Positions 1,995 through 18,259 of a DNA stretch of 18,863 nucleotides are shown piece after piece (position 1 is the first letter of the stretch; each line of letters begins with the position of its first letter). This DNA is from a virus, in UHGV virus genome UHGV-0268673; one strand, written 5' to 3'. The notes beneath the pieces are model-generated. The model worked only from the letters and a program-made list of their open reading frames with translations. It ran no database searches and was not told where the DNA came from. A program made the position numbers and the translations under genes.

Positions 1995-2539
1995 TGTGCG
2001 ATCCGGTTATTGCTGGTGGCGCAATGCTCGCCATTAGTGGCATTCAGGCATACACCCAGTACCAACAGGGAAAGTATGCCTCGAAGGTTGCAGAAGCGAA
2101 CGCAGATATAGCCACAGCTCAGGCAAATGATGCAATAAACAGAGGTAACGCTGAAGCTGAGCAACGGCGCAGAGAGACCCGACAGCGGCTTGGTACACAG
2201 GCGGCGACAATGGGGGCGACCGGCGCTGATTTATCTACCGGTAACGCGCTGGATATATTTGGCGACACTGCCCAGTTTGGCGCTCTTGATTCTCTGACGA
2301 CGGTGAATAACGCGCAACGCGAGGCTTACGGTTATCAGGTTCAGGCTGCCAACTATAAAGCAGAAGTAAGTTCAGCCCGTAAACAGGGGAATGTGGGAGC
2401 AGCAACAACATTGCTCACTGCGCCTCTGAAGGCATACGGTGCGTACCAGATGTTTGGTGGAACGTGGAGTCCGTTTACTCAAAGCACCCCTGCGCCAATC
2501 GGAGCAGCAGCAGGAACCAGATTACCCGGAGGATTATAA
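1994..2539 (+). CDS. Ala/Gly/Gln-rich small internal virion/ejection-type protein (181 aa)
   Basis: GGAGAG Shine-Dalgarno 5-6 nt upstream of the ATG at 1994. Low-complexity A/G/Q-rich composition. Stop TAA at 2537-2539 overlaps the next ATG. Confidence 0.6.
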   Translation: MCDPVIAGGAMLAISGIQAYTQYQQGKYASKVAEANADIATAQANDAINRGNAEAEQRRRETRQRLGTQAATMGATGADLSTGNALDIFGDTAQFGALDSLTTVNNAQREAYGYQVQAANYKAEVSSARKQGNVGAATTLLTAPLKAYGAYQMFGGTWSPFTQSTPAPIGAAAGTRLPGGL

Positions 2540-5286
2540 TGCCAGTCGTACCAACAGTATCCGGACGCCAGGCGCAAAGTCGTGGTGTGCAAACCGGTGG
2601 TTTTCAGATCTTCGATGTTCCTCAAGCAGGTCAGGTGCTGGCGAATGTCGCAGATCAGTATGCGGTGGCATATGGTGAAGCCAGGCAGAAAGCGAATGTT
2701 GCTATGGCCCAGGAGGCGTTACTGCAATTTAACCAATTTGCAGATGACCAGATTAACAACCCTGAAAGTGGGCTGATTTCTAAACAGGGTAAAAACGCTC
2801 TTGGTCAGAGTGACGCTGTTATGAAAAATATGCAGGAAAGGGCTCAGGCATTATTAGGCTCAATTCCTGAAAGTGAGGAAAGGAATAAATTATCCTTTCA
2901 ACTCCAGCAGTCTATGCAGTCTTATTACAATCAGGCACGTCGATATGAAGTTGGGCAGTTTCAGCAATTCCAAGATCAAACGTATTTGTCAGGAAATGCA
3001 TTGGCTGTCACTCAGTCTGCGGGGCTATATAGCGATAACCAAGCATTTGTCGATTTAGCCAAGCAGCGATTTGAATCTATTGATCAATACGCTGATGCGC
3101 ATGGGCTTCCTGATGAGTGGCGTGTTCAGCAGAAAACTCAGCTCAAGGAACAAATGGGGCAGCAAGCATGGATAGGAAATATCGCTCAAAAATACAACGA
3201 GTTTCTTCAGGTTAATGGAGAGCCAGGGGATCTTGATGGTGTGAGTCGTGCAATATCACATGGTAATTCATTGGATGCTCGTGGTTTACGTAATAATAAC
3301 CCTGGTAATATTGAAGCGAGCAAATCTAACCCGTGGGAAGGTCAGATCGGTAGCGATGGACGTTTTGCAACGTTTGCTACCCCTGAGCATGGAATCCGCG
3401 CGTTGGGTAAAAATATGTTGTCTTACCAGCGTCAAGGCTATGACACCGTTAGCGAGATTGTTAATCGCTATGCTCCGGCTAGTGATGGTAATAATACTGA
3501 TGCTTATATTAGGGCATTGTGTGGTGAGCTTGGTGTTGGGGAGAATGATCAGCTTGATATCTCTAACCCAAAGACACTAGCTGCTTTATGTGCTGGGATT
3601 ATTAAACACGAAAATGGCAGTATGCCTTATAGCACCGAACAGCTTGAAACTGGTATCTCGGCAGCCCTTGGTCTAACTAACCTTGATTCACCTAAGCGTT
3701 ATACGGGCAATGCGGCATTTGATGCTATGAGCCCTCAAATGCAAATACAGGCATTGAGGCAGGCTAATGAGCTGAGAAATCAGTACCGCCAGCAGTATGC
3801 GGACCAGCTTAGCACCGTAGTTAAAGATGCATATTCAGCCCTTGATGAAGGATTGAAACCTGAGAAGTTACCTTCTGAGGACGATTTTATCCGGGCCAAT
3901 GGTCCGCGCATTGGCGCTATGAAGTGGAAGGATATGCAGGCGCAGATACAATATGGAGGTGTCATTGGTGCCGCTAAAGACCTCACTCCAGAAGGACGAC
4001 AAGACATTCTTGAACGTTTACGTCCACAGGATCCAAACGCTCCTGGATTTGCAGCTAACCAGCAACGCTGGGAGAAAATGCAGGCCAAATTTAAAGAGAT
4101 GGATAGGGAGTGGGAGATTCAGCAGGGAAGAAACAGGTTCGTGTCTTCAATGCAAAATAACTTCCCGCTGGACCCGAACGACAAAAACAATCAGGCAGCG
4201 GTAGACCGTTATTTCGCGCAGGATATCGCGCCTTCGTTTTCCATATCTGATCCGCAGAGCATCAATACACTGGTCACCGTCACAACTAAAAGCGGCATGA
4301 TACCAACTCAGATTAAAACAATGCTTAACAGTGGAGCGACATCAAGAGATCCTGCGCTGGTTGTCCCGATGGCAAAATTCTACGGTCAGTTATTCGATAA
4401 TAATCCGGCGGCAGCGGCAACACTTGATAAAAGTACGATGGCATTTTACGGCAAGGTTTACGATTATTCCCGCGCTGGCGTGCCGGAGGATAAGGCTGTT
4501 GATATGGCTTACAGCCAGGTGTTCCAACAGGATGACCGAATGAAACAGATGCTTTCCACTGCCATGCGAGACAAAAAATATGTCGCGGCGAGGGCAACTG
4601 CTGCACAAAATAACGCCAGCAGTCTGACTTCCTTTGGTTCGTGGTCTCCGGATATTACCGATCCAGGAAAATCAAATGCGGCCTATCAGCGAGATTACCA
4701 GACAATTTACGATGCTAACTTTGTACAGACAGGTGGCGATGCAGAACAGGCTGAGAAAATGACCAATGCCATGATCAGAACCACTTGGGGAGTTTCTACG
4801 GTTAATGGCAAAGCAGAGGTTATGAAGTATGCACCTGAGGCATTGTACGGAGTAAATAATGGTGCTGGTAACTGGATTCAGGGGCAGTGGGAGCAGGAAA
4901 AACGCGAGCTTAAATCAAAATCCTTTGGCGGTCCTCGCAGTGATACGGACTTAATACTTGTTTCTGATAGCCTTACGGCAAGGGATAGGAGTTATGCTGT
5001 TATGGTTTTACAGCCTGACGCAAACGGAGCGATAGAACCGAGAAATTATATTGGAGAAAATGGTCTCCCTGTTCGTTTCAAGCCGGATCAGCTGACATCT
5101 CCAATGTACAGGCAAACCATTCAGTTCCAGCAACAGCGTGTTGATGAGGCTAGAGTGAGGAGAGAAGGCAATCCGCTGCCGCAGTTCAGCAATAAAGATG
5201 GATATACTCCTCCAGATCTGACCAAACCATTCGGTTATGGTTCAGCCAATTACCTTCCGAGCAATATATACGCAGGGGGCAAATAA
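2539..5286 (+). CDS. Large internal virion/ejection protein (915 aa from the ATG at 2539)
   Basis: The ORF track gives 2464..5286, but the ATG at 2539 has a strong GGAGG Shine-Dalgarno 6 nt upstream and overlaps the upstream stop (TAATG), so 2539 is the likelier start. Contains a conserved-looking block (…RGLRNNNPGNIEASKSNPWEGQIGSDGRFATFATPEHGIRALG…). Size and position match T7 gp15-like core proteins. Confidence 0.75.
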   Translation: MPVVPTVSGRQAQSRGVQTGGFQIFDVPQAGQVLANVADQYAVAYGEARQKANVAMAQEALLQFNQFADDQINNPESGLISKQGKNALGQSDAVMKNMQERAQALLGSIPESEERNKLSFQLQQSMQSYYNQARRYEVGQFQQFQDQTYLSGNALAVTQSAGLYSDNQAFVDLAKQRFESIDQYADAHGLPDEWRVQQKTQLKEQMGQQAWIGNIAQKYNEFLQVNGEPGDLDGVSRAISHGNSLDARGLRNNNPGNIEASKSNPWEGQIGSDGRFATFATPEHGIRALGKNMLSYQRQGYDTVSEIVNRYAPASDGNNTDAYIRALCGELGVGENDQLDISNPKTLAALCAGIIKHENGSMPYSTEQLETGISAALGLTNLDSPKRYTGNAAFDAMSPQMQIQALRQANELRNQYRQQYADQLSTVVKDAYSALDEGLKPEKLPSEDDFIRANGPRIGAMKWKDMQAQIQYGGVIGAAKDLTPEGRQDILERLRPQDPNAPGFAANQQRWEKMQAKFKEMDREWEIQQGRNRFVSSMQNNFPLDPNDKNNQAAVDRYFAQDIAPSFSISDPQSINTLVTVTTKSGMIPTQIKTMLNSGATSRDPALVVPMAKFYGQLFDNNPAAAATLDKSTMAFYGKVYDYSRAGVPEDKAVDMAYSQVFQQDDRMKQMLSTAMRDKKYVAARATAAQNNASSLTSFGSWSPDITDPGKSNAAYQRDYQTIYDANFVQTGGDAEQAEKMTNAMIRTTWGVSTVNGKAEVMKYAPEALYGVNNGAGNWIQGQWEQEKRELKSKSFGGPRSDTDLILVSDSLTARDRSYAVMVLQPDANGAIEPRNYIGENGLPVRFKPDQLTSPMYRQTIQFQQQRVDEARVRREGNPLPQFSNKDGYTPPDLTKPFGYGSANYLPSNIYAGGK

Positions 5287-8200
5287 TGCCGATATATGAA
5301 CAGGATCCTAAAGAGTTGCTTGGCGAGGATATTCAGCAAATAGCAGCACCTGATGACAGTAATTTCTATATGGAAACACCTTCTTTGCTTTCTGCTGTGA
5401 ACCCATTTACCAGTGATCAACGCGTTCAAAGGTCTAGACAAGCAGCATTTCGTATAGATAACACGCTGGGTAGCTTTATTGCCAGTGCTCCTTTCAGTCA
5501 GTTTGACAGGGTTGAAGGATATAACCCATTTGATAACGATGCAGCAGATATTAAAGGCTATGAAGATTTTGCAGATTCGTTTATCAACTCCGGTTCGCAT
5601 GAAGAAACAATGGCAATTAAACATCGAATCGATAAGCAAAGAACAGATAGAGAATATCTATCTGAAATGGGTGGTGCTGGTACTATTTCAAGCTTAGCAA
5701 TGGGAATGATAGACCCGGTTAATGTGGCTGCAATGTTCATCCCTGTAGGGGCGGTAGCGCGTGGAGGAAGTATTGCTGAGACGGCAGGGCGTTTTGCCCT
5801 GGCGAATGCTGCTGGTGGGGGAGTATCAGAAGCCGCATTACAGGCCACTCAGGAAGCTCGCTCACCGATGGAGAGCGTATCGAACGTTGTTGTTGATGCT
5901 CTCGTTGGTGGGATCCTTGGTGCTGGTGCACAGCTACTTGCTGGACCTAGCGCGCGCGAGGCAGTGGTTAACTCAGTAGGTAATCATTTGCGAGGTATGG
6001 ATTCTCCTCAAAGCATTGGTGCAGCTCAGGTTTTCAATACCACACTCGATCAGGAACAGCTCGCTGGACTTGGACTTGCTAACAAAACGTTGAGTGTCAC
6101 TCCTGCTGGCCGCTTGGCGCAATCACCATCTCTTGTCTCCCGTCAGATTAACCAGCAGCTTGCCGAAAATAACTATTTCTTCGCCAAAAATGATGAGGGG
6201 TTGGCTACGTTTACGGCAGTCGAGACTAAGATTAAGCAATACGACGCCATGCTTTATAAGCAGATGGAAGCCACTCGTGATGCTTACCAGCAGTACAGCA
6301 AATCTGTTAGCGCCCGCGGCGTGAAGAGGATGAACTTTATTGATTTCAATGAAGCTGTTGGCATGGCCATGCGCCGTGGTGATCAGAGTGATATTCCTGA
6401 GGTTTCACAAGCTGCCGCCAGAATCCGCCCCATTTTCGAGACCACAAAAGCCCGTATGCAGGAACTGGGGATCCTTCCTGAGGATATCGATGTCGTGACG
6501 GCGAAAAGTTATCTTCCCCGCATTTATAAGTTCGATAAGATACTTTCCGACCGCACTGAATTCAGAGGGCGAATTGCCAACTGGATACAAGGGATTAGTG
6601 CCAAAGGTGCTGACAAGGCAGGTCAGCGAATTGAAAGGATAAATTCATTGCTAAAAACTGCAGAGGAATCGGCACCGCGCGCTGATGCTCTCGCTAGTGA
6701 AATCGCTGAAGCGGAGAAATGGTCTGGTAAAAAAATTCTACTCATGGAAGAACTGGATAAACGAAATAAGCTTATATCTCAGGAGACTGACACACAGGCG
6801 CGTCTTACAAGAATAGAAAAAGAGTTGGCCGAGACTTCATCAGAAAAACTTCAGGCAAGAATGATGAAAGAAAGCTCTGACCTTAAAACACGCCTTGATG
6901 ATATAGCGCAGGCAAAGAGTGAGCTTCCTATCTATCAGCGCCATATGGAATTGCTGGATAATCCACGGAAATATCGTTCTGAGCTTCGCCGACTGCAAAA
7001 ACGGGCAAATTCAACCACAAGGCTGAATGCAAGCCGCGAACGAGCACTGAAGCAGATGGAGCCTCTATCCCGAGAGGAAGCAGAGGACGCTGCTGACGAG
7101 ATCGTGAATAAAATAATAGGCGCACCTTCCGGGCTTGTACCAGCCGATATTATCCCAGAGAGACTCGTTGGTCGGGCTGGTTTCACTAAAAGCAGAACGC
7201 TGCTTATTCCTGATGAGCGTATAGAAGATTTTCTTGAATCAGATGTTAACTACATCATGGAAAGTTATCTCCGGCAGGTGGCACCAGAAATTGAGCTGAC
7301 TGCGCAGTTTGGCCGTAAAGATATGGGGGAGCAAATCCGTCAGGTTAGTGAGGAATATACCCGGCTAATAAAAGAGGCTAAAACACCTAAACGACGTGCA
7401 GTTCTTGAGAAGCAACGGGAGGCTGATATTAGGGATATTACGGCTATGCGTGATCGACTGCTTGGTACTTACGGTGCACCTCAAGATCCACGCAGTTTCT
7501 TTGTTCGTGCCGGGCGAGTTGCTAGGAATATTAACTTCCTCCGTTTGCTTGGTGGAATGACTGTCTCCGCTGCAACTGATCTGATGCGACCGATGATGCA
7601 GCATGGCCTGAGAAAATCTCTCGGACCAATGGTAAGCATGCTTAAAAATATGGACTCAGTGAAAATTGCAACCAGGGATTTGCGAGAAATGGCCGTTGGG
7701 CTTGATTATGTCCTGTCTACGCGTACAAAGGCTATAGCGGATCTTACTGACCCCTATAGCCGGAGAAGCGCCGCTGAGCGAGGTCTGAACTGGATGACGC
7801 AGAAATTCGGTAACTGGACGCTGATGAATCAGTGGAACAGCGCACTTAAATCATGGTCCGGGATGATAGTGCAGTCGAGGATACTTGACGCGGCTCGCCA
7901 AGTTTCTGCTGGTGGCACGCTCTCCAAAAGTGAAATGCGGAAGATGGCACAGGTCGGCATCAATGAAGATGTTCTGCGCCGAATCGGGGAGCAATTCGGG
8001 AAGCACGGAGAGGATATGGACGGGCTGTTAACCGGGCATAGTCATCTGTGGGATGACCGTTTCGCTAGAGAGATTTTCCAGTCTGCAGTGCTGAAAGATG
8101 TAGACTCAGTGATTGTAACGCCTGGCGTAGGTGATACACCGCTGTTTTTTAGTAAAGAAGGCTGGAAGATGATCACGCAGTTCAAAACGTTTATCTTCGC

Positions 8201-8675
8201 ACAGCATAACAGGGTGCTGGTATCTGGTATCCAGCAGGGCGATGCTGCATTCTATCTTGGTGCGCTTGGCACGATTGCGCTTGGCTCAATGGTCTATATG
8301 ATGAAACAGAAGTTAAGCGGTCGCGATATCGACTACAGCTGGAATAACCTTGTGAAAGAGGGGATCGACCGGGGCGGAATGCTTGGCTGGCTCTCTGAGC
8401 CGCTGAATACCGTTGAGAACATAAGCGGCGGTAGGTTTGGTCTTGGCGCGATGTTTGGTGCGCCTCCGGTATCAAGGTTTCAGAGTCGTAATGCTATTGG
8501 TGCTTTACTTGGTCCTACCTTTGATCTTGGCGGTGATGCCGCGACGGTTGCGAATGGTGTACTTAACGGAGAATTTGACAGCCAGCAAACCCACGCGGTC
8601 CGTAAAATGCTACCTTTTCAGAACCTGTGGGCGATATCACCGTTACTAAATAAAGTTGAAGAGCAGATGAAATAG
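5286..8675 (+). CDS. Very large internal virion/ejection protein (1129 aa) with a central coiled-coil-like segment
   Basis: ATG at 5286 overlaps the upstream TAA. Long uninterrupted ORF with a heptad-like charged region around residues 450-600. Size and position resemble T7 gp16-type proteins. Confidence 0.75.
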   Translation: MPIYEQDPKELLGEDIQQIAAPDDSNFYMETPSLLSAVNPFTSDQRVQRSRQAAFRIDNTLGSFIASAPFSQFDRVEGYNPFDNDAADIKGYEDFADSFINSGSHEETMAIKHRIDKQRTDREYLSEMGGAGTISSLAMGMIDPVNVAAMFIPVGAVARGGSIAETAGRFALANAAGGGVSEAALQATQEARSPMESVSNVVVDALVGGILGAGAQLLAGPSAREAVVNSVGNHLRGMDSPQSIGAAQVFNTTLDQEQLAGLGLANKTLSVTPAGRLAQSPSLVSRQINQQLAENNYFFAKNDEGLATFTAVETKIKQYDAMLYKQMEATRDAYQQYSKSVSARGVKRMNFIDFNEAVGMAMRRGDQSDIPEVSQAAARIRPIFETTKARMQELGILPEDIDVVTAKSYLPRIYKFDKILSDRTEFRGRIANWIQGISAKGADKAGQRIERINSLLKTAEESAPRADALASEIAEAEKWSGKKILLMEELDKRNKLISQETDTQARLTRIEKELAETSSEKLQARMMKESSDLKTRLDDIAQAKSELPIYQRHMELLDNPRKYRSELRRLQKRANSTTRLNASRERALKQMEPLSREEAEDAADEIVNKIIGAPSGLVPADIIPERLVGRAGFTKSRTLLIPDERIEDFLESDVNYIMESYLRQVAPEIELTAQFGRKDMGEQIRQVSEEYTRLIKEAKTPKRRAVLEKQREADIRDITAMRDRLLGTYGAPQDPRSFFVRAGRVARNINFLRLLGGMTVSAATDLMRPMMQHGLRKSLGPMVSMLKNMDSVKIATRDLREMAVGLDYVLSTRTKAIADLTDPYSRRSAAERGLNWMTQKFGNWTLMNQWNSALKSWSGMIVQSRILDAARQVSAGGTLSKSEMRKMAQVGINEDVLRRIGEQFGKHGEDMDGLLTGHSHLWDDRFAREIFQSAVLKDVDSVIVTPGVGDTPLFFSKEGWKMITQFKTFIFAQHNRVLVSGIQQGDAAFYLGALGTIALGSMVYMMKQKLSGRDIDYSWNNLVKEGIDRGGMLGWLSEPLNTVENISGGRFGLGAMFGAPPVSRFQSRNAIGALLGPTFDLGGDAATVANGVLNGEFDSQQTHAVRKMLPFQNLWAISPLLNKVEEQMK

Positions 8676-9116
8676 CTATTCACAATTAGTGATGGCGTAT
8701 GTATCAAATATATTGCCATCACTAAATACATACCTATACTCAATCTCTCCGCCAAGGTGAATAAATGCTTTCATTTGCCTGTTGGCGCAAATGCTCGATT
8801 TTGAATAATTTCGCATTACACTCTTTAATTTATTTTCTAAGGTTACATCACCATTATAAGCTTTTGATAAATAGCTGTTGTTGTAATTAAGATGCGCTAC
8901 AACTAAAAGTTTGTTTAGTATTGCATTTATTGAAACAATAGACATATTATCATTCAATTTTATGGGAAGTGACTTTCCTGCTTCTGATGCGATTTTGTTT
9001 GCATGAGCACACATATCCTCATTTATTAAATTCTTAAAACATATGTCGTTTGCAAACGAAAAAATTGGTAGGATAAACAAAACGGTGGCTGTAATAGCGT
9101 GCATCGGCTTAATCAT
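8676..9116 (-). CDS. Secreted/periplasmic protein with N-terminal signal peptide and four Cys (146 aa), unknown function; AT-rich cargo gene
   Basis: N-terminus MIKPMHAITATVLFILPIFSFA↓ND looks like a Sec signal peptide. Strongly AT-rich codon usage compared with the flanking virion genes. Its stop abuts the stop of the convergent upstream gene (TAGCTA at 8673-8678). Confidence 0.55.
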   Translation of the reverse strand: MIKPMHAITATVLFILPIFSFANDICFKNLINEDMCAHANKIASEAGKSLPIKLNDNMSIVSINAILNKLLVVAHLNYNNSYLSKAYNGDVTLENKLKSVMRNYSKSSICANRQMKAFIHLGGEIEYRYVFSDGNIFDTYAITNCE

Positions 9117-9128
9117 TAGGTGACCTTT

Positions 9129-9578
9129 ATGTTCAAGAAGATGATCAACAGATTAATCGGTGGTAAGGAGGTTAGCAATAAAATTCAACCTCTTATCTTT
9201 AAGGATAACTTTTCAGCTTTTGAGTATGCGTGTAAGTATCTTGACACAAGCCTTTCAGCCAATAAACCAATGCCAGCCATCATCATACCTGGTCCCAGTG
9301 GGGAACAGCCAGTTTTGCTAGATTCTGGAAGACAAAGGGCAATGCTGAAGGTGTGCTCAGCTGATGGTGGATTTTTTGTTATTGCCGATTCATCTTACAG
9401 CAAAGGACCAAAGCTGAGGATTGGTGATCTTGTTGCTTGGTTGCCTGTGAGTTATGCCGAAGAATTAACGGATAAAATAGAAGATCCTCGCTCCGCTATG
9501 GTTGGCTTTATATTGGGAACCATTCATCCTGAACTAACATCTACTGGCTGGAAGGGTAAAGAAAGATTTCGCAAGTAG
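9129..9578 (+). CDS. Hypothetical cytoplasmic protein (149 aa from the ATG at 9129)
   Basis: The ORF track starts it at GTG 9120; the ATG at 9129 has an AGGTGA Shine-Dalgarno 7 nt upstream. Followed by a clear intrinsic terminator. Starts head-to-head about 12 bp from the start of the minus-strand gene. Confidence 0.5.
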   Translation: MFKKMINRLIGGKEVSNKIQPLIFKDNFSAFEYACKYLDTSLSANKPMPAIIIPGPSGEQPVLLDSGRQRAMLKVCSADGGFFVIADSSYSKGPKLRIGDLVAWLPVSYAEELTDKIEDPRSAMVGFILGTIHPELTSTGWKGKERFRK

Positions 9579-9591
9579 CGTGACATGTCAC

Positions 9592-9616
9592 AGGCCGCGA
9601 AAGCGGCCTTGTTTTT
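9592..9616 (+). terminator. Rho-independent terminator for the 9129..9578 gene
   Basis: Stem AGGCCGC / GCGGCCT with GAAA loop, followed by TGTTTTT. Confidence 0.6.
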
Positions 9617-9693
9617 AACGAATGCCACTGCCGCCCGGGCGGGAATCCACAGAACGCCCACCGCAGCGGGAGCCGTCAGCGGCAGTATCGCTG

Positions 9694-10014
9694 TTATACT
9701 ATTGAGTTAAATGATATCTTGTCCTTAATATCATTAAGTTTGCCATGTATCTTTTTTGCATAAGAATCAGCTTCCTCAATAAACTTCGACTTCTCATTAT
9801 CAGGCATATTTTTGAAGGTATGTGCACATGTATATTGAGAGTAGTAATTGTGAAACTTGTTATACAAATTATTGAGTTCTTGTAAGTCTTTTTTATACTC
9901 AGGAAGGTATATGTTTATTAGCATTTCCATCGTTTGCAACGGATTGACTTTTGATGTGTCAAATTTACTACCAGAGTGGTAACTGGCATTGTTAACAAAA
10001 TTGAGAATAGCCAT
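9694..10014 (-). CDS. Hypothetical protein (106 aa), very AT-rich; last gene of the minus-strand cargo cluster
   Basis: Uninterrupted ORF in a roughly 30% GC stretch (judged by eye). Weak ribosome-binding site, so confidence is only moderate. Same orientation and spacing as the upstream membrane-protein genes. Confidence 0.45.
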   Translation of the reverse strand: MAILNFVNNASYHSGSKFDTSKVNPLQTMEMLINIYLPEYKKDLQELNNLYNKFHNYYSQYTCAHTFKNMPDNEKSKFIEEADSYAKKIHGKLNDIKDKISFNSIV

Positions 10015-10079
10015 TTCGCTTGAAGCTATGGCTTTTTCAGTAAGTATGCAATTTGTGAATAATTGCTCACGTTTATCTC

Positions 10080-10196
10080 TTAATATTTTTCGCGCTCTAA
10101 TTTTATGCTGTTTTTGTATCCTTGCCTTGCACTTATGTAAGTAGAAACTATAGCAATAACTGCACCTATCAATGCTCCTAAGATAGTATTATCCAT
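10080..10196 (-). CDS. Small single-pass membrane peptide (38 aa: MDNTILGALIGAVIAIVSTYISARQGYKNSIKLEREKY), absent from the ORF track
   Basis: Hand translation of the minus strand. ATG at 10196 is preceded by AGGTGG with a 5-nt spacer; TAA stop at 10082-10080. Hydrophobic core GALIGAVIAIV. Sits between the 287-aa membrane-protein gene and the 106-aa gene. Confidence 0.45.
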   Translation of the reverse strand: MDNTILGALIGAVIAIVSTYISARQGYKNSIKLEREKY

Positions 10197-10221
10197 ATAA
10201 GCCACCTAAACTGCGTAAAAA

Positions 10222-11085
10222 TTATTTCCTGCCACTTCTGTAGTATATGTTGCGACCATTTTTGGTCACATTAACAACATGACCCTTTGTTTCTACTTTG
10301 TTATTTGTTGCCTTATATACTTCAAAGTCAAACCATGATATATGACTTATTTCGTCTATAGATACCATAATTTCTAGACCTTGAACTTTCTTTTTGCTTA
10401 TCCCTTTTATCGCAGCACTGCGCTTAATTTGGATTTCACCTGGGTAAGCGTTTGTAAATGTAACAGATAAATTTTCTTTGTTTCTGTACCCTGACATTAA
10501 AGGAACAAAAGATATGTGTTGGTGTGGCCCTTGATTTTCCGTTGGCTCACCAGAACCATTTATTATTCCAACGTATACTTTATTTGATGATAAAGTAATT
10601 AACATTGGTTTCTTAGGATCTGATTCGATTGCATCAAGCAATAGCAAATCTAAAGAACCCTGGGAGTACGTTTTTCGCAATACTCTAGCTTTCATTGCCT
10701 CTGATATTTTGTCATAAATATCACGTTTATAAAAAAAACCTAAAAGAAGATCTTTTAGCCAAACAAAAGATACATAACACAAAGAGAAGCAAATTGATGT
10801 GACTGACAGAAGAAGTAGCCACATGTAAATTCTATCTGTTTCTGGTTTTGACGTTACATTAAAAGTTTCCACCATATCGTGAACTAGGTGAAAATCAGGA
10901 TATTTATATTTTATAAATGCGGCAATTATTACTGAAGCAACAAGGCAATATGTACCTAATGCAGCTACTTTCATATAAAGAAGCTGGCCTTCATGTCGGT
11001 ATAAACGGAAATAATGATACTGGTTAGCGGTTATCATAATATAACCACTAACCAGAATGGGGATAATTAGAAGAGCTAACAACAC
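10222..11085 (-). CDS. Inner-membrane protein with three predicted N-terminal TM helices and a roughly 175-aa soluble C-terminal domain (287 aa); candidate exclusion/defence/conversion effector
   Basis: GTG start at 11085 overlaps the TAG of the upstream 69-aa gene (TAGTG) and has an AAGGAAA Shine-Dalgarno. Hydrophobic stretches at about residues 2-20, 38-60 and 86-110. AT-rich. I recognise no family. Confidence 0.7.
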   Translation of the reverse strand: MLLALLIIPILVSGYIMITANQYHYFRLYRHEGQLLYMKVAALGTYCLVASVIIAAFIKYKYPDFHLVHDMVETFNVTSKPETDRIYMWLLLLSVTSICFSLCYVSFVWLKDLLLGFFYKRDIYDKISEAMKARVLRKTYSQGSLDLLLLDAIESDPKKPMLITLSSNKVYVGIINGSGEPTENQGPHQHISFVPLMSGYRNKENLSVTFTNAYPGEIQIKRSAAIKGISKKKVQGLEIMVSIDEISHISWFDFEVYKATNNKVETKGHVVNVTKNGRNIYYRSGRK

Positions 11086-12870: not shown

Positions 12871-15447
12871 ATGACGGTCTCAACCGAAGTTGACCACAAC
12901 GAATACACTGGTAACGGCGTTACGACATCATTTCCGTATACCTTCCGTATTTTCAAAAAATCCGACCTGGTTGTTCAGGTGTCTGACCTTAACGGTAACG
13001 TAACAGAACTAGTACTGGATACCGGTTATACGGTAACTGGGGCGGGCACTTATAGTGGCGGTTCTGTTGTTCTTCCGTCGCCGCTTGCTGCTGGATGGCG
13101 AATTACGATAGATCGTGTGCTTGATGTAGTGCAGGAGACAGACCTTCGCAATCAGGGAAAATTTTTCCCCGAAGTGCATGAAGATGCCTTTGACTACCTG
13201 ACGATGCTGATCCAGCAATGTTTTGGGTGGTTCAGACGTGCATTGATGAAACCATCTTTGCTTGCAAAATATTACGATGCAAAGCAAAACAGAATTTCTA
13301 ACCTTGCAGATCCATCATTTGAGCAGGACGCTGTAAATAATCGCTCAATGCGTAATTATGTTGATGCTGCAATCGCCGGGGTTGTTGGTGGTTTTGGTTG
13401 GTTTATTCAGTATGGTTCTGGAGCAGTATACCGAACGTTCCAGGATAAGATGAGAGATATCGTCAGTGTTAGCGATTTTGGTGCAAAGGGAGATGGAATA
13501 ACTGATTCTACGGAGGCGTTCTCTAATGCAGGCCACAGAGCGTTTGTTCCTAATGGCGATTTTGCAGTAAATACTCTCGAAGTTGATGTATCTTCTGTTC
13601 AAGGTATTGGGAGGATTGTTGCTGATAATGGATCTCTTATTTCAGTTTCTCGTCTACTTGAAACTGACAAACTTGTGCAGAGAAAAATGATGGAACCTTT
13701 TTTTGGTTTTCAGGGAGAAACAAACACAGAAATTTATCCTAATGCCAGAAATGCGTTACAGGGGATCGCATATTGCCGTGTTAATGGCATTGAAAAACTA
13801 TTTGTCACACAACGGCCTGTTGGGCCAACCTGGTCAGATAAAGAAAGAGTTCGTATTGTTGAGTTTAATCTTTATGATGATGGAAGGGTAGTAAACCATG
13901 TTGCGTATTCTCCAGAATTAAACCTTGGGCACGGATTTGATCTTTCTGCCATGGTGGAGAATGGTCAAGTATATTTATATACATCAAGTGTAACCAATTC
14001 AGGTGAAGATGGGGAGTCTGCAGGCAAAGGGTTTAGTAAAATAACTTGGCGAGGGGCAGGAACAACTCAGTCTGACGTAAAAAGTTATAATGTATGGGGG
14101 ATTACTGGTAGCGGTCACCCATTTCAAGATTACAATCGTGCAGGAATTGCCATTTCTTCTGACGGTCGTCTTTTAATAATGGTTAATACACCAAAGAGTG
14201 ATGCCGCTAAACGAACTGTATTTATATACGATAAAATATCAATTGATAAACTTGAAGATAAAACATTAGCAAACCCCATGTTTGTTTGGGAAATGAGCGA
14301 CTCACCTTCTGAAGGCGCTTACTCTGTACAAGGTATTGCGTCTGATGGAAGATATATACATATACTTAAGGGAGGGACTAACGCTTTTGGAAAGCATCAT
14401 ATCTTTACATATGATTTAACAGGTAATTTACTAAGAAAATTAGATATCGATGATGCAAGGTCGCAATATGGGCGCGATGGGTTGCTTAACCATCCAACTC
14501 TTGGGAATCCAGCCAGATTTGAGCCGGAAGGTCTAACTATTCGTGGTGAAGAAATAATTATAAGCTGCATAGAAACATGGAGGGCAGGAGCTAATATTGT
14601 AAACTGGCGTGGAAGAAGATGGGCTGCATCATCCATTGAGACTTCTGGAATAATTGGTGTCCCTCCATCAAATGGCTCTTATTGGGTAGAAACAACCAAG
14701 GATGCAAATTCTGGAGATTGGAGTCCTGAAACAGATTATGGATGGGGAAGTAGCTATTCTCTTGAGAAAAAGACAATTTACTCTATACGACCAGCGACTG
14801 GTAACAACGATGAGCAGAACCTTAATTCTGGCATAACCAATGCTTCAAGTAATGCAGGTGCAGATGCCGGAGAAAGCGGGCGAAATATATCATTTAGATG
14901 GCGCAATGCTTTTAATATTGTTGCATTTAGCGAACGTCTTGGTGAGTACTTCAAAGCTATTATGTATGATAATAGCTCAAGATTAAGAATATACGATCAG
15001 CAAAACGGTAGTGATAACACTGTTTATGGCTCAATCCAGGCACTATTTACGTCATCATTTAAGGGATTGATTTTAAGGGGTAGGGGGGTATCAGCATCAA
15101 ATAGTTCCTATATTAGGTTACATTCATCTGATGATCCAAACTACCCAAATTCGATCATTGAAGGAACAAGAACAGATGGAAGTTTTTCCAGGGAAACAGA
15201 TTCAAACGGAACCACTACATTTGCATCGGACTCAGAGCACGAACCGTTGCGTATCAGAAGGGCTTCAGATGGTTTGTTGTTTGCATACGAGAAAGTAAGA
15301 GGTACAACTCTCTTTGGAATTTATAGAGGCTCCGGTTCACCTGAGGGTGTTGTGACCGCACCTCAGGGGTCAATGTACATTGATTATAATGGTGATTGGT
15401 ATCAAAAGAAAACAGGAACAGGAAATACAGGATGGGTGTTAAAATAG
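12871..15447 (+). CDS. Tailspike/tail fibre protein (858 aa) with T7 gp17-like N-terminal virion-attachment domain and a large C-terminal receptor-binding/enzymatic region
   Basis: GGAG Shine-Dalgarno 7 nt upstream. The N-terminal ~120 aa (…YTGNGVTTSFPYTFRIFKKSDLVVQV…ITIDRVLDVVQETDLRNQGKFFPEVHEDAFDYLTMLIQQ) follows the conserved pattern of the T7 tail-fibre N-terminal domain. Long Gly/Ser/Thr/Asn-rich remainder is typical of tailspikes. Confidence 0.85.
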   Translation: MTVSTEVDHNEYTGNGVTTSFPYTFRIFKKSDLVVQVSDLNGNVTELVLDTGYTVTGAGTYSGGSVVLPSPLAAGWRITIDRVLDVVQETDLRNQGKFFPEVHEDAFDYLTMLIQQCFGWFRRALMKPSLLAKYYDAKQNRISNLADPSFEQDAVNNRSMRNYVDAAIAGVVGGFGWFIQYGSGAVYRTFQDKMRDIVSVSDFGAKGDGITDSTEAFSNAGHRAFVPNGDFAVNTLEVDVSSVQGIGRIVADNGSLISVSRLLETDKLVQRKMMEPFFGFQGETNTEIYPNARNALQGIAYCRVNGIEKLFVTQRPVGPTWSDKERVRIVEFNLYDDGRVVNHVAYSPELNLGHGFDLSAMVENGQVYLYTSSVTNSGEDGESAGKGFSKITWRGAGTTQSDVKSYNVWGITGSGHPFQDYNRAGIAISSDGRLLIMVNTPKSDAAKRTVFIYDKISIDKLEDKTLANPMFVWEMSDSPSEGAYSVQGIASDGRYIHILKGGTNAFGKHHIFTYDLTGNLLRKLDIDDARSQYGRDGLLNHPTLGNPARFEPEGLTIRGEEIIISCIETWRAGANIVNWRGRRWAASSIETSGIIGVPPSNGSYWVETTKDANSGDWSPETDYGWGSSYSLEKKTIYSIRPATGNNDEQNLNSGITNASSNAGADAGESGRNISFRWRNAFNIVAFSERLGEYFKAIMYDNSSRLRIYDQQNGSDNTVYGSIQALFTSSFKGLILRGRGVSASNSSYIRLHSSDDPNYPNSIIEGTRTDGSFSRETDSNGTTTFASDSEHEPLRIRRASDGLLFAYEKVRGTTLFGIYRGSGSPEGVVTAPQGSMYIDYNGDWYQKKTGTGNTGWVLK

Positions 15448-17022: not shown

Positions 17023-17501
17023 TCTGGGCATTCGTAAAAGCATATTGTAAACAACTACTTATCGTGGTGATGCTTGCTGCTCTGTTCATCGTCGGAGTGG
17101 TTGCCTGGAATATACACGGCAGTCGCCAGTACGATGCCGGGTATGCGCAGGCGGAAGAAGACCGCAAAGACGAAGAAGACAAAGTTCGTCAGTACTACGA
17201 ACAGGAGAAAGTGACCAATGAATGTGAAGCGCAGCAGAGAATCGACCAGGCGCGCAATGATGCTCTTGATGCTGCCGCTCGCGCTGGCAGGTTGCAGCAA
17301 CAACTCTTTGCCATCCGTGAGCAGCTCAGGCAGTATAACGCCATTGTCGGCGCTGGGACGTCAGCCGCAGACACCGGAGTTTTGCTTGCCGACGTGCTCA
17401 GCAAATCTCTCGAGAGAAACAGACAACTGGCAGAGTATGCTGACCGGGCAGCCGAAGCCGGAAGAGTCTGCGAAAAACAGTATGACACCCTGACAAGATA
17501 G
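17019..17501 (+). CDS. Rz-like inner-membrane spanin (i-spanin), 160 aa
   Basis: N-terminal TM helix ([18 protein letters not shown]) followed by a charged coiled-coil-like periplasmic domain. Directly downstream of the endolysin. Confidence 0.7.
17218..17493 (+). CDS. Rz1-like outer-membrane lipoprotein spanin (o-spanin) embedded in the +1 frame of the Rz-like gene
   Basis: ORF lies wholly inside the i-spanin gene in a different frame. Signal peptide with lipobox LALAGC (Cys about residue 26) and a Pro/Ser-rich mature region. AGGAGA upstream. The true start may be an internal Met. Confidence 0.55.
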   Translation: MNVKRSRESTRRAMMLLMLPLALAGCSNNSLPSVSSSGSITPLSALGRQPQTPEFCLPTCSANLSRETDNWQSMLTGQPKPEESAKNSMTP

Positions 17502-17651
17502 CATGGCATTTTTCATGGTACTGATTTCCGGTGACGGTATATAAAACGGTACGGTGAAAATCATGTTGCAGGAAGTTGTTATCAGTCAATTGGTTATGGT
17601 ATCCGTAAATAATTGAGTGGGAATGATTTGAACCCTGCACTATGAATGAAC

Positions 17652-17681
17652 AAAACCCTCTGTTACTACAGAGGGTTTTTT
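17652..17681. terminator. Bidirectional rho-independent terminator between the lysis cassette and the convergent minus-strand genes
   Basis: Perfect 12-bp stem AAAACCCTCTGT / ACAGAGGGTTTT with TACTA loop; A-tract on one side and T-tract on the other. Confidence 0.65.
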
Positions 17682-17719
17682 ATACTCACGAATCATAGGC
17701 TTGAAGTTACTGACATCGC

Positions 17720-18259
17720 TTAGTTAAACCAGCTGTCCGATTTGTTCTCTTCTGCTTTGCCCACGCTTTTCATCAGATCGCGACCGCCTTCAGTCATATT
17801 TCTGTTTGCGTCAGCTTCAGATTGCACCACATCGGTTTGCGCAGCTTTGTGCTTCAGTTCCTGATCGATAAATTCGTTTTCGCGCTTGACGCGGGCTTCT
17901 TCTTTCGCCAGCGCCAGTTTTTGTTTCTGAATCTCTAAGCTGCGTAGCTCATCTTCATAACTTTGATCGCGTTTTTTGTCCGCAGTGGCTTCGGCGTCCA
18001 GTTTATCCTGACGAGCTTTCTTATTCGCCGCTGCCGTTGCCGCTCTTTTATTAGCCGCGGCCTGGGCGTTTGCGCGACGTTGCTTCTCTTGCTGGATTTC
18101 CCTGTTGCGCTCCGCGACCCATTCGTCATGCTGCCTTTGCTCTTCATTTTTACCTTGCTGTTCCGCTTCTGCGACAGCCGAGAGTTGATCCTGCAATGAT
18201 GAGGCGATAGCCGGATAGCTTAAGGAGGCTAAGATGGCGCAAAGAAAAACTTTCTTCAT
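17720..18259 (-). CDS. Secreted, highly charged coiled-coil protein (179 aa), unknown function
   Basis: N-terminal signal peptide (MKKVFLCAILASLSYPAIA↓SS) and an E/K/Q/A-rich heptad-like body. GGAGGA Shine-Dalgarno upstream. Sits 15 bp downstream of the lipoprotein gene, so the two are probably co-transcribed. Confidence 0.6.
   Translation of the reverse strand: MKKVFLCAILASLSYPAIASSLQDQLSAVAEAEQQGKNEEQRQHDEWVAERNREIQQEKQRRANAQAAANKRAATAAANKKARQDKLDAEATADKKRDQSYEDELRSLEIQKQKLALAKEEARVKRENEFIDQELKHKAAQTDVVQSEADANRNMTEGGRDLMKSVGKAEENKSDSWFN

What the first reader, a model, noticed from the sequence alone, without database searches (positions are those of the whole stretch)
8676..9578. Head-to-head gene pair (secreted 146-aa Cys-containing protein and 149-aa cytoplasmic protein) with start codons about 12 bp apart
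The two start codons (9116 minus, 9129 plus) are so close that each promoter must lie inside the other gene's coding sequence. The minus-strand gene is AT-rich and encodes a signal-peptide protein with four cysteines; the other has intermediate GC. Such pairs can be a secreted effector or inhibitor with a partner, or two separately acquired morons. The function is unknown and it is an uncommon layout.
Basis: seen in the sequence. Interest (0 to 1): 0.5.

Follow-up and report, generated by a model that had tools for sequence, protein, structure and literature searches.

The report
Two independent prophage accessory genes abutting
Two real, conserved prophage genes start 12 bases apart on opposite strands, but they are separable accessory genes rather than a two-part system; one encodes a periplasmic protein with a secretion-pilotin fold, in the genome position where phage P22 keeps its superinfection-exclusion gene.

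Summary
Gene A (8676-9116, minus, 146 aa) and gene B (9129-9578, plus, 149 aa) are genuine genes under purifying selection, with 12 bp between their start codons.

The window is an E. coli prophage with a T7-type DNA-ejection gene set. The pair lies in the variable region between the last ejection-protein gene and the tailspike gene.

The genes are not an obligate pair:
- At least eight lineages carry A alone.
- One lineage carries B alone.
- A Klebsiella lineage has a 1.6-kb mnt/arc/ant module inserted between them.
- One lineage has A's mature domain swapped.
- The tight arrangement is inherited within one clade and also occurs in Cedecea.

B belongs to an unrecognised domain family of at least 307 clusters with no Pfam model. 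Its function is unknown.

The finding is moderately interesting: an ordinary mosaic junction holding two unstudied protein families.

The parts
5286..8675 (+). Context: last and largest ejection (internal virion) protein gene, 1129 aa. Its stop codon abuts the stop codon of gene A.
   Evidence: phrog_342 'internal virion protein with endolysin domain', E 2.8e-235. It is preceded by a T7 gp14-family gene and a 915-aa protein with a transglycosylase region.
8676..9116 (-). Gene A: 146-aa secreted (periplasmic) protein with four invariant Cys and an AspS/PA3611-like fold. GC 0.327.
9051..9116 (-). Signal-peptide coding part of A (residues 1-22, predicted cleavage SFA|ND). No lipobox.
   Evidence: Read from the translation. 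The n-region Lys, hydrophobic core and small residues at -3/-1 are conserved in homologues. The residue before the first Cys is I, L or P in most members, which a lipoprotein signal does not allow.
9117..9128 (.). 12-bp gap between the two start codons. The palindrome AGGTGACCT (9118-9126) supplies a Shine-Dalgarno-like sequence on each strand.
   Evidence: Read from the sequence. The gap and both ribosome-binding sites are conserved in L020, L033, L050, L051 and L053. Cedecea has a 19-bp gap.
9129..9578 (+). Gene B: 149-aa protein without signal peptide or membrane segment. It is a member of an undescribed domain family. GC 0.420.
   Evidence: ORF and RefSeq CDS. phrog_9944, function unknown. 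13 close clusters. 307 representative clusters in a profile search. dN/dS 0.05-0.16. The structure model is poor, pLDDT 56.
9592..9616 (+). Intrinsic terminator-like hairpin (AGGCCGCGAAAGCGGCCT) plus T-run after B. It has no T-run on the minus strand.
   Evidence: Terminator scan. It lies in a roughly 125-bp block (9570-9694) conserved in many related phages and prophages.
9615..9689 (-). Remnant of a 'transmembrane anchored protein' gene, part of the conserved junction block.
   Evidence: Annotated as an incomplete pseudogene in L001 at the equivalent position. An intact 53-aa homologue is present in TL-2011b and L002.
9150..9178 (-). Weak candidate promoter for A inside B's first 17 codons (TTGCTA, 17 nt spacer, TAATCT). 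Inference only.
   Evidence: My own reading of the sequence. It is below the threshold of the promoter scan, which found no minus-strand site there. Synonymous divergence is only mildly lower at B's 5' end, 0.46 against about 0.6.
9065..9095 (+). Weak candidate promoter for B inside A's signal-peptide codons (TTGGTA, 19 nt spacer, TGTAAT). Inference only.
   Evidence: My own reading of the sequence. The spacer is too long for the consensus and the scan did not report it. The roughly 108 bp upstream of B are retained in L033 although the rest of A is replaced.

Best explanation
The pair is a mosaic junction between two independent accessory genes (morons). They lie in the variable region between the DNA-ejection (internal core) genes and the tailspike gene of a temperate podovirus integrated next to yfgI in E. 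coli.

Gene A
- Shown: it is a secreted, non-lipidated protein with a signal peptide, so it should be periplasmic.
- Shown: it has four invariant cysteines.
- Shown: its predicted fold matches the AspS pilotin and PA3611.
- Shown: it always lies on the strand opposite to the late genes, immediately after the last ejection-protein gene. That is the slot of sieA in phage P22.
- Shown for context only: in Klebsiella relatives it sits 11 bp downstream of an mnt-like repressor gene, and in Morganella it is the last gene of a co-directional operon.
- Inferred: it is made in the lysogen.
- Inferred: it acts in the periplasm as a superinfection-exclusion factor. It would use the pilotin-type groove to bind a segment of an incoming relative's ejection proteins and so block assembly of the DNA conduit.

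Gene B
- Shown: it has no export signal.
- Shown: it has its own ribosome-binding site and a terminator.
- Shown: it points the same way as the late operon.
- Shown: it belongs to a widespread but unannotated domain family.
- Its function is unknown. Inferred: it is expressed by late read-through and/or from a weak promoter inside A, and acts in the cytoplasm as an accessory or counter-defence factor.

The 12-bp head-to-head layout is inherited by descent in one clade. It is not a sign that the two proteins work together.
For: Phage context
- T7 gp14-family gene, 915-aa and 1129-aa internal virion proteins, tailspike, holins, GH19 endolysin, then host yfgI/yfgH.
- The slot is variable. 410 E. 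coli records share the flanks, but only 14 of 5426 genomes carry the pair. Others carry a 283-aa secreted protein there instead.

Separability (tblastn and HMM over all loci)
- A alone: Providencia L003-5, L021-25, Salmonella L035, Morganella L036/37.
- B alone: L010-12, L034.
- Both present but split by an Arc/Mnt/antirepressor module: Klebsiella L006-8.
- B facing a protein that has A's signal peptide but a different mature domain: L033.
- Intact pair: E. coli, L050/51/53 (A about 79%, B about 70% identity) and Cedecea (A 31%, B 57%).

A's fold
- AF2 mature domain has pLDDT about 90.
- The model has the extra helix after strand 3 that distinguishes PA3611. C110 and C145 sit where the conserved AspS disulfide ties helix 2 to the C-terminus.
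- A close homologue gives a weak, co-linear hit to the AspS Pfam model PF16549, E 0.12.

P22 precedent
- The gene order is 7, 20, 16 on the plus strand, then sieA and mnt on the minus strand, then arc, ant and 9 on the plus strand.
- SieA is expressed from the prophage and blocks DNA injection. Escape mutations map to ejection proteins gp16 and gp20 (PMC10883804).
- TL-2011b has the same layout, with a membrane-anchored protein in the slot.

B
- 307 representative clusters, 171 at E<=1e-10.
- No Pfam or PDB relative.
Against: - No experiment or transcript data bear on the expression or function of either gene.
- A has no sequence similarity to SieA. [quoted passage not shown]
- The fold match rests on a model built from only nine sequences. 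Sequence-profile searches do not significantly link A to AspS or PA3611.
- The pilotin fold could point to a host secretin as the target rather than a phage protein.
- No convincing sigma-70 promoter for A was found.
- The pair is conserved at deep divergence in Cedecea and keeps the same 12-bp gap in three lineages. A functional or regulatory link would also predict this.
- B's neighbourhood hints are anecdotal: a NARP1-like pair with NADAR, and AbiU2, against two uninformative contexts.
Confidence: 0.5

Rival explanations
1. The two genes form one functional module, for example a secreted effector or toxin with a cytoplasmic partner or immunity protein. The tight divergent layout would serve coordinated regulation from one shared control region.
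For: - The head-to-head layout with a 12-19 bp gap is kept in E. coli, in L050/51/53 and in Cedecea, despite 31%/57% protein identity.
- All A genes at least 74% identical to the window's have B nearby.
- A shared palindrome supplies both ribosome-binding sites.
Against: - At least eight A-only lineages and one B-only lineage have no member of the other family within 4-6 kb, even by HMM.
- Klebsiella tolerates a 1.6-kb insertion between the genes and loss of B's N-terminus.
- L033 keeps B but replaces A's mature domain.
- The wider B family (307 clusters) is unrelated to A's distribution.
- The predicted compartments differ.
- There are no toxin-antitoxin, immunity or PADLOC hits.
Confidence: 0.12
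2. A is a lysogenic-conversion factor that acts on a host secretin. As a soluble, lipid-free pilotin mimic, it would bind the S-domain of a secretin (such as E. coli GspD-beta) or a filamentous-phage secretin, and so change secretion, piliation or susceptibility to other phages.
For: - The only established activity of this fold is binding the secretin S-domain (AspS; PMC3542185).
- Like PA3611, A lacks a lipobox. Dunstan et al. proposed that PA3611 may bind secretins in the periplasm.
Against: - Sequence identity to AspS is only 12-16% and no surface is known to be conserved.
- A is tightly linked to the ejection-protein gene in several differently organised prophages and host genera. This fits a phage-directed role better than one tied to a particular host secretin.
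- The function of PA3611 itself is unsettled (PMC8860233).
Confidence: 0.12
3. A is a periplasmic inhibitor of the peptidoglycan-cleaving (transglycosylase) domain carried by incoming phage ejection proteins. It would work like T4 Spackle, which blocks the tail lysozyme of superinfecting T4. The T4 comparison is from my own knowledge.
For: - The adjacent ejection proteins carry a transglycosylase region (window protein 2539-5286, residues about 246-381; an SLT domain in the Cedecea and Salmonella relatives).
- A is small, periplasmic and disulfide-bonded, and lies in the exclusion-gene slot.
Against: - No match to any lysozyme-inhibitor family (Ivy, MliC/PliC and others) by Pfam at E<=1.
- The fold is a helix-binding pilotin type.
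Confidence: 0.12
4. The layout is mainly regulatory. Overlapping, opposed transcription across the 12-bp junction would make expression of A and B mutually exclusive, with A in the lysogen and B in lytic growth. This would work by transcriptional interference or by pairing of the overlapping 5' leaders.
For: - Geometry: either promoter must lie within or beyond the other gene, so the 5' leaders or read-through transcripts must overlap.
- B points the same way as the late operon, and no strong terminator separates it from the core gene.
- In Klebsiella, A follows an mnt-like gene and B follows arc-ant. In P22 those are alternative expression states.
- Synonymous divergence shows a mild dip at B's 5' end.
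Against: - No promoter above the scan threshold on the relevant strands.
- The synonymous-site signal is weak and absent in A.
- No known RNA family in the region.
- No transcript data.
Confidence: 0.2

Closest known systems
Phage P22 SieA (superinfection exclusion; Leavitt et al. 2024, PMC10883804)
   Same: - Same genomic slot: a small gene on the strand opposite to the late operon, immediately after the last ejection-protein gene and before the mnt/arc/ant region and the tailspike.
- An envelope-located product.
- SieA's targets are the neighbouring ejection proteins.
   Different: - No sequence similarity.
- SieA is a multi-pass inner-membrane protein, whereas A is a soluble secreted protein with two likely disulfides.
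- The phage here has T7-type rather than P22-type ejection proteins.
- An exclusion phenotype for A is untested.
AspS / GspS-beta (YghG) type II secretion pilotin (PDB 4FTF, 5ZDH; Pfam PF16549)
   Same: - Cysteines placed like the conserved AspS disulfide.
- A weak, co-linear PF16549 hit in a close homologue.
   Different: - AspS is an outer-membrane lipoprotein encoded with a type II secretion system. A has no lipobox and is encoded in a prophage.
- A lacks the C-terminal helix 4.
- A has an extra N-terminal disulfide pair.
- Identity is 12-16%.
Pseudomonas aeruginosa PA3611 (PDB 3NPD; DUF4146 family)
   Same: - Soluble periplasmic or secreted protein without lipid anchor.
   Different: - No detectable sequence relationship.
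- PA3611 is a chromosomal Pseudomonas gene of unsettled function. It has been reported to promote epithelial-mesenchymal transition (PMC8860233).
- A is confined to Enterobacterales prophages.
Soluble periplasmic exclusion proteins: T4 Spackle and P1 Sim (from my own knowledge, not tested here)
   Same: Small, signal-peptide-bearing periplasmic proteins. They are made by a resident phage and block entry of a related phage's DNA at the envelope.
   Different: Unrelated sequences and, for Spackle, a different all-helical fold. No evidence yet that A excludes anything.

Membership tests
AspS-type T2SS pilotin (PF16549, T2SSS_2) | Sequence match to the family model above the curated threshold | tested here: not met
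   No hit for A at E<=1. The best in the family is P0002 at E 0.12 and 12.9 bits, against a cut-off of 25.
AspS-type T2SS pilotin (PF16549, T2SSS_2) | Alpha/beta AspS fold | tested here: met
   [not shown]
AspS-type T2SS pilotin (PF16549, T2SSS_2) | Lipoprotein signal peptide (lipobox Cys) for outer-membrane targeting | tested here: not met
   The signal peptide ends SFA|NDIC. The residue before the first Cys is I, L or P in nearly all members. Only the Cedecea homologue (..LAASAC) could fit a relaxed lipobox.
AspS-type T2SS pilotin (PF16549, T2SSS_2) | Encoded with a type II secretion system | tested here: not met
   Every locus examined is a podovirus prophage, with A between the ejection-protein and tailspike genes.
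AspS-type T2SS pilotin (PF16549, T2SSS_2) | Binds the secretin S-domain | not testable with these tools
   Needs binding assays or complex modelling.
PA3611 / DUF4146 family | Sequence match to the family | tested here: not met
   No Pfam hit in any of 18 members at E<=10. A profile search of PDB sequences does not find 3NPD.
PA3611 / DUF4146 family | Soluble periplasmic protein with the AspS-like fold plus an extra helix after strand 3 | tested here: met
   [not shown]
P22 SieA superinfection-exclusion proteins | Sequence similarity, including the FxRYPxEAxxFNK motif | tested here: not met
   BLASTP E 12 against P22 SieA. The motif is absent from A. The motif is described in PMC10883804.
P22 SieA superinfection-exclusion proteins | Inner-membrane protein with several transmembrane helices | tested here: not met
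   A has only an N-terminal cleavable signal peptide. The rest is modelled as a soluble alpha/beta domain.
P22 SieA superinfection-exclusion proteins | Gene position between the last ejection-protein gene and the tailspike gene, opposite strand | tested here: met
   P22 annotation compared with the window and with Klebsiella, TL-2011b, Salmonella and Morganella relatives.
P22 SieA superinfection-exclusion proteins | Blocks DNA injection by related phages | not testable with these tools
   Needs plating and DNA-entry assays.
Periplasmic lysozyme inhibitors (Ivy, MliC/PliC and others) | Match to a family model or fold | tested here: not met
   [not shown]
Two-gene toxin-antitoxin, effector-immunity or defence module | Obligate co-occurrence of the two genes | tested here: not met
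   A-only and B-only lineages, a split pair and a swapped A domain.
Two-gene toxin-antitoxin, effector-immunity or defence module | Match to known toxin, antitoxin, immunity or defence models | tested here: not met
   No PADLOC, Pfam or NCBIfam hits for either protein.

The most novel reading that the evidence does not exclude
A founds a new class of prophage superinfection-exclusion protein. It would be a soluble, lipid-free mimic of a secretin pilotin that captures an amphipathic segment of an incoming phage's T7-type ejection proteins in the periplasm and stops the DNA conduit from forming. Its mature domain would be exchanged as a cassette behind a constant signal peptide (as in L033) in an arms race with the adjacent ejection-protein gene. 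In addition, the 12-bp head-to-head junction would act as an interference switch between lysogenic expression of A and lytic expression of B.
Probability: 0.2. Interest if true: 0.65.

Novelty: new variant of a known kind. Interest (0 to 1): 0.4.

Why it matters
Prophage genes in the slot after the ejection-protein genes decide which other phages can enter a lysogen. Only the P22 SieA type has been studied in mechanistic detail. A gives a concrete and cheaply testable candidate for a non-homologous, periplasmic solution in podoviruses with T7-type ejection proteins. It would also give the first biological context for the AspS/PA3611 fold outside secretion systems. No similar structure was found among predicted viral proteins (best TM-score 0.40). 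B defines a sizeable domain family with no Pfam model or solved relative, which is worth describing. The head-to-head layout itself is a mosaic junction and should not be read as a two-component system.

Tried and rejected
Searches that found nothing useful
- Pfam, NCBIfam and PADLOC scans of both proteins gave nothing significant. PHROGs gave only families of unknown function.
- Profile searches of PDB sequences with the A family, the B family and the broad B alignment gave nothing.
- Pfam scans of 76 B-family members and of 10 multi-domain members gave only a single Zeta-toxin fusion and a single zinc-ribbon fusion.
- Foldseek of A against predicted viral structures gave nothing above TM 0.40.
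- The afdb50 library was unavailable.
- Rfam found nothing in 8300-10300.
- There is no literature on PF17549.

Structure of B
- The AF2 model from 12 sequences was poor (pLDDT 56).

Possible remote relatives of A
- Profile comparison of A with the L033 variant aligned only the N-terminal signal-peptide region, with low probability (20%).
- Profile comparison with TL-2011b gp39 gave no match.
- The L033 variant and gp39 share a weak C-terminal match, E 0.014.
- Their shared helix-Cys, hairpin and terminal-Cys pattern therefore stays an unproven lead.

Collection scans
- Scans of 185,579 species-representative genomes for A and for B found none.
- The broad B alignment was too diverse for a locus search.

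Promoter evidence
- The promoter scan found no site above threshold for either gene on the relevant strand.
- The test for embedded promoters using synonymous sites was inconclusive.

Other points
- Four further contexts of distant B-family members gave two suggestive neighbourhoods and two uninformative ones.
- I first read L020 as 'A with a truncated B'. The break lies within about 60 nt of the contig end, so it cannot be judged.

Full report
**1. What is there**

The window is an E. coli prophage. Reading left to right, it encodes:
- a tail protein;
- two small internal virion proteins, one of the T7 gp14 family;
- a 915-aa protein with a transglycosylase region;
- a 1129-aa internal virion protein (5286-8675);
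- a block of low-GC genes;
- a tailspike (12871-15447), two holins, a GH19 endolysin and a DUF2514 domain-containing protein (RefSeq name);
- the host genes yfgI and yfgH.

Gene A (8676-9116, minus strand, 146 aa) and gene B (9129-9578, plus strand, 149 aa) sit directly after the 1129-aa gene. RefSeq calls both genes with the same start codons in a 98.6%-identical prophage.

Twelve bases separate the start codons. The palindrome AGGTGACCT (9118-9126) gives each strand a Shine-Dalgarno-like sequence at a normal distance from its ATG.

GC is 0.327 for A, 0.420 for B and 0.483 for the core gene.

Both genes evolve under purifying selection.

**2. The two genes are separable**

Close homologues are very rare. 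There are 9 clusters for A and 13 for B among 5.8 billion proteins. Neither gene is present in 185,579 species-representative genomes. Only 14 of 5426 complete E. coli genomes carry the pair, while about 400 share the flanks with other cargo.

I fetched 30-odd related loci and searched them with tblastn and with family HMMs. The results were:
- **Intact head-to-head pairs:** the window type; a second gut-metagenome type with A about 79% and B about 70% identical and the same 12-bp gap (L050, L051, L053); and Cedecea davisae (A 31%, B 57%, 19-bp gap).
- **Both genes present but split:** in Klebsiella they are still divergent but 1.6 kb apart. An mnt-like gene, an arc-like gene and an antirepressor gene lie between them, and B has lost its first 16 codons.
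- **A's domain swapped:** in L033, B faces a 147-aa protein that shares A's signal peptide and the intergenic DNA but has a different mature domain.
- **A alone:** Providencia, Morganella, Salmonella and five IMG/VR contigs, with no member of the wider B family within 4-6 kb.
- **B alone:** one lineage, L010-12 and L034.

The arrangement is therefore inherited within a clade, but neither gene needs the other.

**3. Protein A**

It has a signal peptide with a predicted cleavage site SFA|ND and no lipobox. Its four cysteines are invariant in all 16 clear family members.

No Pfam, NCBIfam or PADLOC model matches it.

The AlphaFold model is confident over the mature domain, with pLDDT about 90.

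Dunstan et al. (PMC3542185) describe the following:
- the AspS topology;
- a conserved disulfide that ties helix 2 to the C-terminal part;
- an extra helix after strand 3 in PA3611;
- PA3611 as a non-lipidated periplasmic protein with an open hydrophobic groove.

The model of A has that extra helix. It also places Cys110 at the end of helix 2 and Cys145 at the C-terminus. I could not measure distances in the model, so the disulfide pairing is inferred.

A close homologue (P0002, 81% identical) gives a weak but co-linear hit to the AspS Pfam model, E 0.12. This is not significant alone, but it is the family the fold search had already named.

No similar fold was found among predicted viral structures.

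A therefore works like a member of this fold class but fails the membership tests for AspS. It has no lipid anchor, no secretion-system context and no sequence match.

**4. Where A sits**

In every locus, A is convergent with the last ejection-protein gene and immediately after it. This holds even in a Salmonella prophage with a different gene order.

In Morganella, A is the last gene of a co-directional operon. In Klebsiella it follows an mnt-like repressor gene by 11 bp.

The annotated P22 genome has the same plan. Ejection genes 7, 20 and 16 are followed by sieA and mnt on the other strand, then arc, ant and the tailspike gene 9.

Leavitt et al. (PMC10883804) showed three things about SieA:
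- It is made from the prophage and blocks DNA injection.
- Escape mutations fall in gp16 and gp20.
- Diverse sieA types always occupy this slot.

TL-2011b, a relative of the window's phage, has the same plan, with a membrane-anchored protein in the slot. Other E. coli relatives carry a secreted Cys-rich 283-aa protein there.

A shows no similarity to SieA. The analogy is positional and functional only. I infer that A is a lysogen-expressed periplasmic exclusion factor, and I give this about one chance in three.

The main alternatives are:
- a soluble pilotin mimic acting on a host secretin;
- a Spackle-like inhibitor of the incoming transglycosylase.

**5. Protein B**

It has no signal peptide or membrane segment.

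A profile search of 1.84 billion representative proteins found 307 related clusters, 171 of them at E<=1e-10. Most are stand-alone proteins of about 150 aa. About 20 of the 148 examined carry two to four N-terminal membrane helices. One is fused to a Zeta-toxin-type kinase and one to zinc ribbons.

Neither the family members nor a 76-sequence profile match any Pfam family or solved structure. The structure model was poor, and its fold search gave only noise.

Genomic contexts of distant members:
- One tandem-domain member lies between a PRPP-synthetase-like plus NAPRTase-like gene pair and a NADAR gene, next to Csy3/Csy4. From my own knowledge, that gene pair is the make-up of the phage NAD-reconstitution pathway NARP1.
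- Another lies beside HEPN_AbiU2.
- Two further contexts say nothing.

B's function stays unknown. A role in phage-host conflict is only a lead.

**6. Transcription**

B points the same way as the late operon. It has a good ribosome-binding site and is followed by a strong plus-strand terminator (9592-9609). That terminator lies inside a junction block conserved in many relatives.

No strong terminator separates the core gene from B, so late read-through across antisense A is plausible. In P22, late transcription crosses the equivalent region to reach gene 9; that statement is from my own knowledge.

The hairpin has no T-run on the minus strand, so leftward transcripts from the BRO-N block could reach A.

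The promoter scan found no site above threshold for either gene. I noted one weak candidate for each by eye. Synonymous-site conservation gives only a mild dip at B's 5' end. No Rfam family matches the region.

The claim that each promoter must lie inside the other gene is therefore too strong. The promoter lies within or beyond the other gene. Either way the transcripts must overlap, which allows interference between the two genes but does not show it.

**7. Verdict**

The finding is a real, uncommon but explicable layout: a mosaic junction in a prophage cargo region.

The value lies in its contents:
- a candidate non-homologous periplasmic analogue of SieA with a pilotin fold;
- an undescribed domain family.

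I rate the novelty as a new variant of a known kind, and the interest at 0.4.

Noticed in passing
window 9694-10197 (minus strand): The 106-aa ORF at 9694-10014 is the C-terminal part of a 167-aa membrane-anchored protein that is intact in L001 (10295-10798). A 1-nt deletion relative to L001 splits the window copy into two frames, so it is a frameshifted pseudogene or a sequencing error.
   Followed up: partly
L006-L008 (Klebsiella) 4024-6432: An immI-like module (a 77-aa mnt-like protein, a 53-aa arc-like protein and a 315-aa P22_AR_N antirepressor with its own terminator) lies exactly between the A and B homologues. It replaces A's signal-peptide codons and B's first 16 codons.
   Followed up: partly
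L033 3544-3987 (minus strand): A 147-aa protein shares A's signal peptide and upstream DNA but has an unrelated-looking mature domain with two Cys, ending ..SKSDCD. This looks like a cassette exchange behind a constant 5' end. Homology to A is not demonstrable.
   Followed up: partly
L042 (phage TL-2011b) 2582-3145 (minus strand): gp39, in A's slot, has an N-terminal membrane anchor and a C-terminus (..IYCAS..IILHYYADSGESLIFNIGVSPESC) that resembles the pattern of A and of the L033 variant. The only support is a weak match to the L033 variant, E 0.014.
   Followed up: partly
L002 3278-4129 and phage EC.W1-9 (L041 4278-5129), plus strand: In most E. coli relatives the slot holds a single 283-aa signal-peptide, Cys-rich protein (phrog_6118, unknown function) on the late-gene strand, in place of the A/B pair.
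   Followed up: no
L043 479-9796: A tandem B-domain protein (P0034, Burkholderia-type contig) lies in a block with Csy3/Csy4, a PRPP-synthetase-like gene, an NAPRTase-like gene, DUF723, NADAR and a NUDIX/NrtR-like gene. The block looks like a phage counter-defence island.
   Followed up: no
P0028 (Morganella A-family member; L036 4552-4977): It gives a sub-threshold hit to Pfam PF17549 'Phage_Gp17' (E 0.004; residues 49-138 against profile positions 15-107 of 140). I could not find out what that family is.
   Followed up: partly
window 17501-17720: The prophage ends here, right after the lysis genes and next to host yfgI. I did not look for the attachment-site repeat.
   Followed up: no
window 10222-11085 (minus strand): A 287-aa low-GC (0.34) protein of unknown function (phrog_3630) and a 69-aa partner lie in the same leftward block as a BRO-N antirepressor-like gene. 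I did not examine them further.
   Followed up: no
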